Of a DNA stretch of 64,000 bases, positions 1,131-62,334 are shown in pieces. The stretch is taken from contig NC_057735.1 in NCBI RefSeq assembly GCF_004010195.1, forward strand, positions 13,074,391-13,138,390. The letters are read 5' to 3'. Every line of letters begins with the position of its first letter. Within the stretch, counting starts at the first letter, position 1. Below the pieces are notes generated by a model. The model searched no databases, was not told the DNA's origin, and saw only the letters and a program-made list of their open reading frames with translations. Made by a program: the position numbers and the translations under genes. This DNA is from Chiloscyllium plagiosum. Its lineage: Eukaryota.

Positions 1131-3197
1131 AATTTGTTCAATTTACGTGTACAAATTTTCCCACTGTTATCAGGCATATGAACAGACCTCTCATAGCTTA
1201 GAGTTGATCTCTCTCTGCACCTTCACTGTTGCTGCAACACTATATTCTGCATTCTGTTCTATTTCCCTGATGTACGTTTGTCAGGTATGATTTGTCTGGT
1301 CAACATGCAAAACAATACCTTTGCATCTCGGTACATGCAATAATAATAATTCACCTCAAATCAAAAGTGGGGAAATGTGTGTGGCCTGAAAATATAAGCT
1401 ATTATTGCTCAAATATTTGGGAATCTGCTTTGAACATCTAAACCTAAAATTCAAACTGAAATGGAATTGAGAGGCACCACCTTAAATCGCTGGTAACAGG
1501 TTTCAGAATATTTGGAGATATAAATGGAGCCAGAACTGGACCTCATCAGGCTACATGAAACTTTCTGACAGCATTAATTAATAGCCACAACATCTAGGAT
1601 TGGCAAATTTCTACCTGTATTCGATAAGTAGCAATAAATCAATCATCACACCAAACAGCTCAAGTGTGAAGTGAATTCAAGTTTCTAATCACACAGATAT
1701 AACAGGAACAAAAGATTGAAAACTGGGAAATTGCATTTCATGATTTTATTATATTATATAGTTTCAGAAACTATTATAATGAGAAGATTCCAGAAAATAG
1801 AAAAGGCAGCTGTGTGATGTTAGGATCACATTTACACCAACTCAGATTTCGCTGCAGACAACGTCCACCTTCAACAGAAACATGCACATCTCTGGAGAGT
1901 ATCACAGCTCCAAGAGTTTATCACAGCGAGTGTCAGAACCAAGAAAGAACCAAGTAAAAGTGTTACACAATCAAAGTGTGGGAATAGTGAGACTGTCTCT
2001 ATGTTCTCATTTCTAAACCAGATCCAGTGTCCTTAGTCTGTTTCTTTAAAAACCCACCCTGACAAGGGATTTAATCACATTCATTTGTTGTAAGTTAATG
2101 TGGAGCACTGCTGAGCACAGTCCACAGGCTATTGCCAATGGTATAACTTTATTCATAGTCATTCAAGAGATGAAGACTTTACTGTGCAGCCATGTGACAA
2201 CTGCAGTGCTGGAGAAAGATGTGATCACTGCACGTCAACCCGGAAATACCAATCCGGGTGTGTTTTTAATGAGAACGTAAACGAAGGAATTAAGCAGCTT
2301 TAGCCAAGCCCACACGGTTGTTCCCCACGTCGAAAATGGAATAATATTCCCCAATGAAAACATCTCCCAGAATCCAGAGGCTTCCACCAGTAACACCAAA
2401 TCCACTCATGCAGCTTCTTTGGTTGTTGTAAGTGCTCTGTAAGGAAAACAAGCACAGTTAACACTGGCTCATATCATCATCACCTTTAGTGAGCATTACA
2501 GTATTGTAGACTGTTGAATATATTGAATACATTCCATTAAATCTTTTGAAAATTTAGTGATAGAAATTTTAGACAGTATGGCTGTCCAAAAAATACCTGT
2601 AAAGTGTAGGCTTGTGGAGGAAGAGGGAAGTCGACTCCATTGATTGTGAAGACCACATTGGGCATGTTATACAGATTTTTACAGTTTATGGTGTACTGCA
2701 AGGAAACAGAGACGGTATTCAGTCATAGTGTCTGTGTAAGGATTTACAAAAACATTTAGTGGTGCAATAACATGACTAATTCGTCATTGTTGAACATATC
2801 ATGAGTTGAAATCTGAATACATAAGCAACCCAAAAGTGAATGATTGAAGAGAAGTTGCAGTCACCAGGATATACTTCATTTCCATTTAACAATATGATGC
2901 CAAAACATTTCTAAACATCCATGTTCATCTCAATCTTACAGCATTAAGAGGATTTTGGAGCAAGTACTTATTCTTCAAACACCATGCCCTCTTCTGCGCA
3001 AATGTTTGTCTGTGAATAAGTAGATTACAAAATGTAAAGACTTTCCATTTAAATCTTCCTCCAAATCCAAATGCTTTCCCAATATTTCTGGGGCAGTGTG
3101 TACATTCTGCAGTGTCAAGAGATTCACATCTCCACAGCTTCACATATGCAATATAATTTAGCATGGCCCCTATCTGTACTTCAGCCTCTCACATATG

Positions 3198-3300
3198 GGA
3201 AAAAGTGAGGACTGCAGATGCTGGAGTACCAGAGTTGAAAAATGTGATGCTGGAAAAACACAGCAGGCCAGGCAGCAAAGATTGCAGGTCAAGAGGGCGG
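3198..3300. mobile_element. Internally deleted Penelope-like fragment abutting pseudogene exon 7
   Basis: aaagtgaggactgcagatgctgg...ggcagc joined to aagattgcaggtc...ggcgg; both parts match the 13343 element. Confidence 0.7.
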
Positions 3301-3770
3301 TGTTGCTCCAATGTACTGCTGAATGGTGTTGATGGGTGTGCTGGGACCAACAAGGAGAGAAGTGCCAGTGTCAACAATGGCTGGACAACCTCCACTGCAG
3401 GCCACAACCTGCCCATTGATTGTCACCCTGAGGGAGAGAAATGAATCAATAGTTAAAGATCTAAATCCCTCAAACTGTTTTAGGCTTATTGAACAAGTAA
3501 TAGCAAGCTGAGCTTTAGTTAGCTCAGATATTCATTATAATCTCCTTAAATGCTGATTGGATAGAATAATTATTGATGTATAAAATAAATTGAAAGTGCT
3601 GGACAAACTCAGCAAGTCTGACAGCATCTGAGATGAGAAGAGCACAGTTAAATTTTGAGTCCAATTTGGCTTTTCTTCAAAATTGAAAGTGATGATTTTA
3701 TTTTTATTTTGATCCTCCTGGGCTTTTAGTTCACATATTTCAATATAATTTGATAGAATCAGTCAATTTG

Positions 3771-4095
3771 GGGCAGATTGGTGGCTCAGTGGATAGCACT
3801 GGTGCCTCACAGTTCCGGGGACTCACAGCATCGGGCGACTGTGTGGAGTTTGCATGTTCTCCCTCTGTCTACGTGGCTTTCCTCTGGGTGCTCTGGTTTC
3901 TTCCCACAGTCCAAGATATGCAGGGTAGGTAAATTGGTCATGCTAAAGTGTCCATAGTGCTCAGAGATGTGAAGATTAGGTGGATGAATCAGGGAAAAAT
4001 GTCAAGTAATAAGGGAATGGGTCTGGATGGGTAACTCTTCAGAGGGTCAGTGTGGACTTGTTGGGCTGATTTCCACACTGTAGGGATTCTATGAT
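3771..4095 (+). mobile_element. tRNA-derived SINE (HE1/V-SINE-like)
   Basis: ggtggctcagtggatagcact head; tgtgtggagtttgcatgttctccc core; gtagggattctatga tail. Confidence 0.8.
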
Positions 4096-59782: not shown

Positions 59783-59789
59783 TATAAAA
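59783..59789 (+). promoter_or_regulatory. TATA box of pgc
   Basis: TATAAAA ~100 nt upstream of the ATG. Confidence 0.68.
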
Positions 59790-59885
59790 CCATCCAGACT
59801 CTATCAGTCTCTAGCACAACTGAAGAAATTGTGCAAATCATTTCTGCTCGTCTATAGCTCTCTGCAACCCATGACAAGGACCAGC

Positions 59886-59941
59886 ATGAAGTGGTTGATA
59901 CTTTCACTGATGTGTATTCAGCTCTCTGAATGTCTCTACAG
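59886..59941 (+). CDS. pgc: pgc exon 1 ([19 protein letters not shown])
   Basis: ATG 59886, AG|gttggt donor, 56 nt. Confidence 0.88.
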
Positions 59942-62334
59942 GTTGGTCATTAAACAAATTTCTATCAGCGGACACATGCATCACTGTGTGCATCGGGCAC
60001 TTGTTATATTCCAATATATTGTATAGAGTTTACTCATTTAGGGTTTGATTAAGGAAATGTTCCTGCATGTGATATATTTGATCCTGTTCAGTTTGGTTAA
60101 ACTCCAACGAGATTGACTATATGTTGCTGCTTTTGATGTGTAATTTGTTCGAAGAGATGCTCAGACCAGCACTCACTCTTTACTCTTTCAGAATGCGTTT
60201 ACACAGGGGAAAGTCTATCCGGGAAATCCTGAAGGAGAACGGGGAGCTGAAGCATTTCTTAGAAACGCACAGATATGATCCTGCCTTGAAATACAGAGCT
60301 TTGTACCCTGACTACCAATCGCAGACAGGGAATGAGCCACTTCTCAATTCCATGAATGTAAGTTTAAAGAAAGTTCATTTTAAAAAGCGTTAAAATGTCA
60401 TAGGTTATTTAAACCCCAGAACCAAAAGACATAGGATCTTCCAGCCCTTTGAGTCCGCTGTACCATTCCATGAGATCTGATCTGATAATTCTTAACTCCA
60501 CTTTCCTCCCTTTTGCCCATAACTCATGATTCCCTTACTAATTAAAAATCTGTCTGTCTCAGATCTGATTTGGCCCGCATGCTAGCATCTAAGTTAACTA
60601 CCTCTCCTACCAGTTGACACTATGCTTGGCTTAATGCTGATAGGGTGTTCAAAGTAGAGAACCAGAGTATTCCACAGCGTGAGCATTGACTGTTGTTACA
60701 AACTTGTATTTGATGAAGTTGCCTTCCAGACTAAGGTGTTTCATCCAGTAACCAACGATATTCAAACTCCTTCTAAAATTAACTTTCTTTAGATGTTCAG
60801 ATCACCATAATTTTGCAAGCAGGGGCAAACTGTCTTCCTGGAAAAGACAAAGGATTGTTAGAAGTTAGACCAAGAAAATGGGGGTGAGGGTGGGGGTGAG
60901 GTCACCACTAATACAGTGTCATAAAGTAATCAAGTCCTTCAGCATAGAGACAGGCCCTTTGGCGCAAATTGTTCAACCCTGGCCAAAACATCCATCCACT
61001 CTAACTCCACTCTTCCCTGCATTTGACCCATATCCTTCTAAATGTTTCCTATCCATGTATTTGTCCAAATGCCTTTTAAATATTCTTAATGTAACCCCCT
61101 CAACCACTTCTGCTGGTAACTCATTCCATGTGTGTACCACCTTCTGTGTAAAAAAGTGCTTTGAAAACATTTGCTCAGACCCTCAGGGAATGTCTCAGAT
61201 TTACGGGAGGCTTGAGACTGATGCTATTACATATCTGTTTGCATGACGTGTGCCTTGCAGTTTATCAATGGTGCTCCTTGTTTTCACCATCAAATATGCA
61301 TATCCTTCATATGTTTGTTTCTTTAATCTGGGAGATAGGTCAATAAGACTTGGTGATGTGAGGCTACTTTATTTTCACAGAACATGCTAACCAACATGCA
61401 GTTACATTCAGATTGACGTGCCTTATGCATCAACACAAAATAATGAGGAAGTTGCACTTTCCCCATTAGTAAGTCAACTTACTTGACTTGATTAGAATCA
61501 CTCCATCACTTTGCAGGGAAGAATCTCTCTCCCTACGATTTCCACTCTTTCCTATTCCCACTCAGGGTTAGAATTCTTCGGCCTGCTGATAAGGCAAGAA
61601 CCATTCCACCAAATGAATAAAACAGCAACAGCAGCAGAGTGCCTGCAATCACTTGCATGTTAAAGTAACTTCCTTGTACGAACATGTTGGTTCAGTGATT
61701 ATCTGAAATCTATCTCTTCCAGGTCAGCAGCTCGGTCAATTTCACCCCTTCAGACCCAAGCTGACTCATCAGATTGTAACATATTTAAAGGGAGATTTCT
61801 CTCCTCACACACACCATGGCACCACAGGTAGTAGCCTCAAAGCATGATTATCATTTTGATAAACTCAAGAACTCACCAGAAAATGAATTTCTATTGTTTT
61901 TATTTTGTGGACATGTTTTGGTTTCCATTGTGGTCGTGTAGCAATAAATTCAGAATAAATTTAATCTAATTCTTATTTTCCAATTGGTTGTTTAGAGTTT
62001 TTACTATGGCTCCATTACTGTGGGTACTCCACCCCAGAGTTTTACTGTCCTGTTTGACACTGGCTCATCTAACCTTTGGGTCCCATCCATCTACTGCAAC
62101 AGTGCACCATGCGGTGAGTGAAGAAAACTTGCAAAGTCATTAGTCCTTCAAATAGAACTTTAACTCAGATTCCTTTCCATAGGATATGAATTCTGAAGCA
62201 GTTTTTACCTTTTAGGGAATCATGCTCGATTTAATCCAACCCAGTCCTCAACTTTCACTACAAATGGACAAACATTCAGTTTCTCTTATGGCTCCGGTAG
62301 CCTGTCTGGATACTTTGGATATGATACAGTAAAT
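59886..62334 (+). CDS. pgc: Progastricsin / pepsinogen C-group gene, exons 1-4 (3' part outside window)
   Basis: Join 59886-59941,60192-60357,61996-62113,62216-62334, open, GT-AG introns. C-type signatures [59 protein letters not shown]. No exon 5 seen before 64000. Confidence 0.9.
60192..60357 (+). CDS. pgc: pgc exon 2 (prosegment [34 protein letters not shown]...EPLLNSMN)
   Basis: tttcag acceptor, AAT|gtaagt donor, 166 nt. Confidence 0.93.
60915..61165 (-). mobile_element. CR1 3' end in pgc intron 2
   Basis: [19 protein letters not shown]. Confidence 0.82.
61996..62113 (+). CDS. pgc: pgc exon 3 (catalytic DTG)
   Basis: tttag acceptor, G|gtgagt donor, 118 nt. Confidence 0.94.
62216..62334 (+). 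CDS. pgc: pgc exon 4 (flap YGSGSLSG)
   Basis: tttag acceptor, AAT|gtaagt donor, 119 nt; preceding intron only 102 nt. Confidence 0.94.

What the first reader, a model, noticed from the sequence alone, without database searches (positions are those of the whole stretch)
2290..62334. A-type and C-type pepsinogens in one tandem cluster in a probable cartilaginous fish
Seen: three A/chymosin-type loci, plus a C-type gene starting 5.7 kb downstream of the intact A-type gene in the same orientation. Established: human PGA (chr11) and PGC (chr6) are unlinked, while the chymosin pseudogene and a PGC/PGB-type pseudogene lie on 1p13. Inference: this may preserve the ancestral gnathostome cluster from which A/chymosin and B/C pepsinogens arose by tandem duplication.
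Basis: partly seen in the sequence, partly recalled or inferred. Interest (0 to 1): 0.7.

Follow-up and report, generated by a model that had tools for sequence, protein, structure and literature searches.

The report
Known shark pepsinogen A/C gene cluster
This bamboo-shark DNA holds one intact and two broken pepsinogen A genes next to a pepsinogen C gene, inside a cathepsin E–pepsinogen A–pepsinogen C cluster whose likely ancestral origin by tandem duplication was already published for other sharks and skates in 2026, so it is an ordinary further example.

Summary
The window holds an intact 9-exon pepsinogen A gene (+, 42798-54162), two broken A copies on the minus strand (2290-7782, 23168-26687) and exons 1-4 of an intact pepsinogen C gene starting 5,723 bp after the A stop, with no assembly gap between them. 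Neighbouring DNA extends this to eight loci in 173 kb: cathepsin E, five A loci, two C genes, between a Rab7-like and an FRS3-like gene. A tree puts the loci firmly in the E, A and C clades. Earlier notes of this scan met the same array in two other elasmobranch genomes. Corrections: nothing here is chymosin-type; the A and C copy expansions are elasmobranch-specific, so only a one-E, one-A, one-C skeleton is likely ancestral; the human 1p13 pairing is likely secondary. A side lead that I did not find in print: nothepsin lies beside FRS2 on another chromosome, so it may be the whole-genome-duplication twin of this cluster. Verdict: already known, interest low.

The parts
2290..7782 (-). A1: pepsinogen A pseudogene, exons 3-9 (7782-7665, 6838-6719, 5579-5401, 4281-4162, 3427-~3300, 2695-2597, 2436-2290); +1 frameshift in exon 4, 21-nt deletion in exon 5, exon 7 donor lost; a recent sister of the intact copy A0 that lies 39-46 kb upstream of the window
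8051..9009 (-). Place where A1 exons 1-2 are missing: DNA like A0 intron 2 (8051-8647) runs into DNA like the A0 5' flank (8775-9009), with no N gap, which points to a deletion
23168..26687 (-). A2: pepsinogen A pseudogene, exons 3, 4, 8, 9 (26687-26570, 25733-25615, 23546-23448, 23314-23168); exons 5-7 with the second catalytic Asp absent with no gap there; TAG in exon 9; exons 1-2 not found
28593..29092 (.). Assembly gap (500 N), about where A2 exons 1-2 would lie
   Evidence: position inferred from the A0 intron length
37130..37774 (.). Assembly gap (645 N) between the minus-strand A copies and A3
42798..54162 (+). A3: intact pepsinogen A, 9 exons (42798-42853, 43807-43969, 45327-45444, 46204-46322, 48237-48436, 50588-50707, 52387-52531, 52765-52863, 54004-54162), 392 aa, DTG at residues 94 and 278; TATAA at 42712
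54163..59885 (.). A3-C1 spacer, 5,723 bp, repeat-rich, no N; TATAA at 59783
59886..62334 (+). C1: pepsinogen C exons 1-4 (59886-59941, 60192-60357, 61996-62113, 62216-62334); exons 5-9 lie beyond the window end (to 74138 in window counting); intact, 392 aa, DTG at 95 and 280

Best explanation
The window is the middle of a shark cathepsin E–pepsinogen A–pepsinogen C gene cluster lying between a Rab7-like and an FRS3-like gene, and its three-gene skeleton likely dates from tandem duplications in the ancestor of jawed vertebrates. Shown here: gene order Rab7-like, ctse(-), A0(-), an orphan A exon 1-2 pair(-), A1 broken(-), A2 broken(-), A3(+), C1(+), C2(-), FRS3-like, over 173 kb from ctse to C2; five intact reading frames; tree order nothepsin,(E,(A,C)). 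Inferred: the extra A and C copies arose later within elasmobranchs by local duplication with inversion, and A1 and A2 died by deletion, frameshift and a stop (birth and death). Inferred from family knowledge: the intact A and C genes make secreted gastric zymogens whose basic propeptide is removed in acid, freeing a two-aspartate protease; expression and activity were not measured here. In bony vertebrates the cluster was broken up by the published translocations.
For: Gene models. Tree of 47 proteins rooted on cathepsin D/napsin: A clade 97/95, C clade 100/99, shark E with dugong cathepsin E 98/93, A+C sisters 99/96; shark C1+C2 lie in an elasmobranch-only clade (100/99) and A0-A3 in an elasmobranch-only clade (93/98); the 71-row quick tree under a mixture model agrees on these groups. 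PDB: P0002 best to pepsinogen/pepsin A, P0052 best to gastricsin, 453 bits against 428 for pepsinogen and at most 391 for mature pepsin A. Flanks: Rab7-like exon 40 kb beyond ctse, FRS-family exon 37 kb beyond C2 with FRS3-type residues. Same arrangement published in three species (PMC13389413 Results). Two DTG motifs, six mature cysteines, estimated propeptide pI 8.2-9.8 and mature pI 4.2-4.9 in all five intact products.
Against: The assembly is incomplete here: four N gaps lie between ctse and A3, and six unplaced contigs hold further A-type exons, so the A copy number is a lower bound. No contig of four other DNA runs spans the whole A3-C1 spacer; they tile it in pieces broken at repeats. 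No chymosin or true PgF sequence was in the final tree. FRS3 against FRS2 rests on one exon whose phmmer scores are nearly equal (121 against 123 bits); Rab7b against Rab7a was not tested directly. Ancestral linkage is a parsimony inference; an ancestral order cannot be observed.
Confidence: 0.9

Rival explanations
1. The A genes were moved into an older ctse-pgc interval only in the elasmobranch line, and the prok1/kcna3/rbm15 site used by ray-finned pga and tetrapod cym is the ancestral pga site.
For: Bichir, bowfin and gar keep ctse and pgc together but pga elsewhere (PMC13389413). A third A subfamily on unplaced contigs is unresolved at the base of the A clade and has no known position. 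Prokineticin-like and Kv1-channel genes lie on the same shark chromosome C26, so a move either way is intrachromosomal.
Against: A and C are sister clades and E is their sister, which fits origin side by side. No pepsinogen hit for 5 of 5 queries in 600 kb around the prokineticin-like, Kv1 and rbm15-like genes (38 N gaps remain).
Confidence: 0.07
2. The A-C adjacency is an assembly misjoin.
For: The assembly has 101,977 contigs and gaps on both sides; no independent contig bridges the whole spacer.
Against: No N between 37775 and 70670. Contigs of four runs from three organisms cover 30 of 30 bins in order and at even depth outside repeats (one of these runs could be the source of the assembly). 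The order is published for three other species.
Confidence: 0.02
3. The minus-strand copies are chymosin orthologues, so the cluster also preserves the A/chymosin split.
For: A0, A1 and A2 form a separate clade (100/99) only 67% identical to A3. No chymosin was in the tree.
Against: That clade is sister to the shark A3 clade, outside the starred bony-vertebrate A clade. PMC10991444 section 8 places cym as a tetrapod-specific paralogue and finds four cartilaginous-specific pga branches.
Confidence: 0.02

Closest known systems
Elasmobranch rab7b–ctse–pga–pgc–frs3 cluster (Nagasawa & Inokuchi 2026, PMC13389413; read: abstract, introduction, results, discussion, methods, Table S2 parts 1-2, searched rows of Table S1; figures not held)
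   Same: Same three gene types, same order class, same flanking genes, similar size (173 kb here; 157 kb whale shark, 313 kb skate, 580 kb catshark); same inference of tandem origin in the gnathostome ancestor.
   Different: Another species ('bamboo' has 0 occurrences in their Table S1); eight loci, five intact, with pseudogenes and inversions described here. Their main text does not discuss nothepsin/frs2 paralogy.
Cartilaginous-fish pga paralogues (Kato et al. 2024, PMC10991444; read: section 8 and passages)
   Same: Several old pga branches restricted to cartilaginous fishes, with species-specific copies; a bamboo shark genome was among those sampled. I see three such lineages here.
   Different: The passages I read do not describe linkage to pgc or ctse.
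Tetrapod Pgc cluster beside Frs3/Tfeb (Castro et al. 2012, PMC3298455; read: parts 1-3 of 5)
   Same: C-type genes in tandem next to Frs3.
   Different: No pga or ctse in it. The shark C1/C2 pair is a separate elasmobranch duplication, not Pgc1/Pgc2/Pgb.

Membership tests
Peptidase A1 pepsinogens (A3, C1) | Asp domain with two catalytic DTG motifs | tested here: met
   PF00026 410 and 390 bits; DTG at 94/278 and 95/280
Peptidase A1 pepsinogens (A3, C1) | Signal peptide, basic A1 propeptide, acidic mature enzyme, six conserved cysteines | tested here: met
   PF07966 over cut-off; pI estimates and Cys positions; signal peptide judged by eye from the sequence
Peptidase A1 pepsinogens (A3, C1) | Nine-exon gene with conserved intron positions (nine-exon rule recalled) | tested here: met
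   All five intact genes have nine exons of matching lengths
Peptidase A1 pepsinogens (A3, C1) | Gastric expression and acid activation | not tested
   No RNA reads were laid. PMC13689627 passages report PGC and PGA3 as oxynticopeptic markers in an atlas that includes bamboo shark stomach; they do not resolve these copies.
Type-A pepsinogen (A0-A3) | Falls in the PgA clade | tested here: met
   97/95; PDB best hits pepsinogen/pepsin A
Chymosin | Closer to chymosin than to pepsin A; inside the tetrapod A radiation | tested here: not met
   A3: 392-399 bits to chymosin against 439-470 to pepsin A; shark A copies lie outside the bony-vertebrate A clade. No chymosin row was in the tree and A0 was not scored against PDB.
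Type-C pepsinogen (C1, C2) | Falls in the PgC/PgB clade | tested here: met
   100/99; PDB best hit gastricsin
Elasmobranch ctse-pga-pgc cluster | ctse, pga and pgc within a few hundred kb | tested here: met
   173 kb; E groups with cathepsin E 98/93 and has the N-terminal Cys at the cathepsin E position
Elasmobranch ctse-pga-pgc cluster | Flanked by rab7b on the ctse side and frs3 on the pgc side | tested here: met
   Rab7-family exon and FRS2/3-family exon with FRS3-type residues; paralogue calls rest on one exon each

The most novel reading that the evidence does not exclude
Nothepsin and the whole cathepsin E/pepsinogen cluster are twins from a vertebrate whole-genome duplication: one aspartic protease gene beside one FRS gene gave nothepsin-frs2 (C19:48.83-48.94 Mb) and proto-ctse-frs3 (C26), and only the second copy then expanded in tandem into ctse, pga and pgc. 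This would date the origin of gastric pepsins to after the genome duplication. Basis: nothepsin is sister to (E,(A,C)); FRS, RASSF-SARAH and MDM-type SWIB families each have a C26/C19 pair (3 of 4 families looked at; cyclin D had a C26 hit and none on C19); nots lies near frs2 in Table S2 of PMC13389413 but its main text has 0 hits for ohnolog, paralogon or frs2, and two library searches listed no paper saying so (listings only).
Probability: 0.55. Interest if true: 0.35.

Novelty: already known. Interest (0 to 1): 0.13.

Why it matters
The cluster ties the origin of pepsin digestion to tandem duplication of a cathepsin E-like gene in early jawed vertebrates, but that point is in print since May 2026. 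This locus adds one more species and shows copy turnover, with pseudogenes, inversions and unassembled copies. The only part that may add something is the nothepsin/frs2 versus ctse-pepsinogen/frs3 paralogy, which would order genome duplication before the tandem expansion.

Tried and rejected
NCBIfam gave no family for either protein (a prokaryotic library). Looking for a chymosin reference among 20 of the 150 library representatives gave none, so chymosin was judged by PDB scores and papers. The careful 71-row mixture tree did not finish and returned a quick tree; the final tree (LG+G4) has 47 rows: it adds the unplaced-contig gene and leaves out 25 rows, among them the long branches (PAG-like of armadillo and desman, axolotl, Siniperca, Denticeps, pheasant) and redundant shark and tetrapod rows. 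No AU test was run. The six unplaced contigs could not be anchored to any gap of the cluster by blastn. A pga at the shark's prok/kcna/rbm15-type sites was looked for and not found. No RNA holder was listed for the stretch, and expression stays untested. The lesions in A1 and A2 were not checked in other individuals. The place look-up of earlier findings was empty. The figures of all papers, including Fig. 3 and the supplementary figures of PMC13389413, are not held and may show more than the text, including the nothepsin paralogy.
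Full report
Observation. A six-frame motif scan and tblastn with pepsinogen proteins over the window plus 200 kb on each side found four pepsin-family loci in the window. Exon borders were fixed on AG/GT sites. A3 (+, 42798-54162) has nine exons, canonical introns and translates to 392 aa identical to P0002, a public 'pepsin A-like' labelled Chiloscyllium plagiosum. C1 (+) starts at 59886, 5,723 bp after the A3 stop; it runs out of the window to 74138 and its 392 aa lie letter for letter within P0052, a public 'gastricsin-like' with the same species label. 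A1 (-, 7782-2290) lacks exons 1-2 at a gap-free junction, has a +1 frameshift, a 21-nt deletion and a lost exon 7 donor. A2 (-, 26687-23168) keeps exons 3, 4, 8 and 9 only and has a TAG in exon 9.

Surroundings. The window is G000:C26:13074391-13138390. Upstream lie an intact cathepsin E-like gene (396 aa), an intact A copy A0 (388 aa) and an orphan A exon 1-2 pair that ends at an N gap; downstream lies a second intact C gene, C2 (393 aa, minus strand). These eight loci span 173 kb. A Rab7-family exon lies about 40 kb beyond the E gene and an FRS2/3-family exon about 37 kb beyond C2. Against the FRS exon on C19, the C26 exon carries the FRS3-type residues and the C19 exon the FRS2-type ones, though the phmmer scores alone do not separate them. 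Six unplaced contigs carry more A-type exons: four of a third subfamily, 95-99% alike where they overlap, one A0-like exon 3 and one broken exon 1-2 pair. They could not be anchored.

Classification. Against PDB, P0002 scores 470 bits to pig pepsinogen, 439-445 to pepsin A, 412 to cathepsin E, 392-399 to chymosin and 363 to gastricsin; P0052 scores 453 to gastricsin, 428 to pepsinogen and at most 391 to mature pepsin A. The 47-row careful tree rooted on cathepsin D and napsin gives nothepsin,(E,(A,C)) with A 97/95, C 100/99, E 98/93 and A+C 99/96. A0, A1 and A2 form one clade (100/99), sister to the clade of A3 and the other shark and ray 'pepsin A-like' proteins (joint support 93/98, not starred). 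C1 and C2 fall in two subclades that each hold sharks and rays, inside an elasmobranch-only C clade (100/99). So the copy expansions are elasmobranch-specific, and what can be ancestral is one E, one A and one C. The 71-row quick tree shows the same groups. Rows left out are listed under Tried and rejected; no chymosin was held.

Is the join real? There is no N between 37775 and 70670. Contigs of four DNA runs from three organisms cover 30 of 30 bins of 53900-62400 in order, but break at repeats and none spans the spacer; one run may be the source of the assembly. In 6 of 6 other elasmobranchs with both A and C hits and a contig length (Stegostoma, Narcine, Heptranchias, Scyliorhinus canicula, Rhinoraja, Pristis) the lengths are identical; Pristiophorus had both but no length.

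Literature. PMC10991444 section 8 finds four cartilaginous pga branches and a tetrapod-specific cym. PMC3298455 shows Pgb arising in amniotes inside the Pgc cluster and moving away in mammals. Two earlier notes of this scan, on a manta ray and a white shark, reached the same paper; I had read it before seeing them.

The 1p13 remark. Ray-finned pga and tetrapod cym share the kcna3/rbm15 site, so that site is a later home of A-type genes under the published model, and the human PGB pseudogene arrived separately. In this shark a prokineticin-like gene (C26:60 kb) and two Kv1 channel genes (C26:50.54 and 50.57 Mb) lie on the cluster's chromosome and an rbm15-like gene at the end of C28 (gene names inferred). 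Five pepsinogen queries found nothing in 600 kb around them, with 38 N gaps left. The 1p13 pairing therefore reflects at most a shared ancestral chromosome, not the tight cluster.

Mechanism. Shown: gene order, intact frames, lesions, tree. Inferred: tandem origin E then A and C; later local duplication with inversion; decay of A1 and A2. From family knowledge: secretion as a zymogen, loss of the basic propeptide in acid, two-aspartate catalysis; the motifs, cysteines and charge pattern fit. Expression was not tested; passages of PMC13689627 report PGC and PGA3 in oxynticopeptic cells of fishes with stomachs.

Side lead. A nothepsin orthologue (best to catshark nothepsin) lies on C19 about 95 kb from the FRS2-type exon. 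RASSF-SARAH and MDM-type SWIB exons also occur on both C26 and C19; cyclin D does not fit. With nothepsin as sister of E+A+C, this suggests the two loci are whole-genome-duplication twins. It is not in the main text of the 2026 paper nor in the listings of searches, but those cover only the open library, and the flanking pairs were not dated here.

Verdict. Observation confirmed; interpretation right in the main but already published; interest 0.13.

Noticed in passing
G000:C19:48.83-48.94 Mb (L046, L044, L047): Nothepsin orthologue about 95 kb from an FRS2-type exon, mirroring the cluster's FRS3 neighbour; possible whole-genome-duplication pair.
   Followed up: partly
G000:C92791, C90682, C34047, C55775 (L041, L042, L063-L065): A third pepsinogen A subfamily in several near-identical, unplaced pieces; unresolved at the base of the A clade; exons 8-9 not found in the genome search.
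   Followed up: partly
A0 gene, L037 (G000:C26 about 13.035 Mb), residue 58: The intact A0 product has two extra cysteines in its propeptide end (C50, C58); C58 sits at the same place as the N-terminal cysteine of cathepsin E (its role in dimer formation is recalled). None of the other A or C proteins aligned has it there.
   Followed up: no
G000:C26:8.52-8.54 Mb (L048): Renin gene on the same chromosome, 4.5 Mb from the cluster.
   Followed up: partly
window 59871-59885: An in-frame ATG five codons upstream of the conserved C1 start; the public model P0052 begins there.
   Followed up: no
A1 against A0 (window 1509-8647): Exons are 93-99% alike apart from the lesions while stretches that include introns are 78-88% alike, which suggests recent loss of function or gene conversion.
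   Followed up: no
window 54468-61283: Several high-copy repeats in the A3-C1 spacer and C1 intron 2, seen as very high contig depth.
   Followed up: no
G000:C91806 (L066): Broken A-type exons 1-2 (stop in exon 2), 77% like A0; may be the missing start of A2, not anchored.
   Followed up: partly
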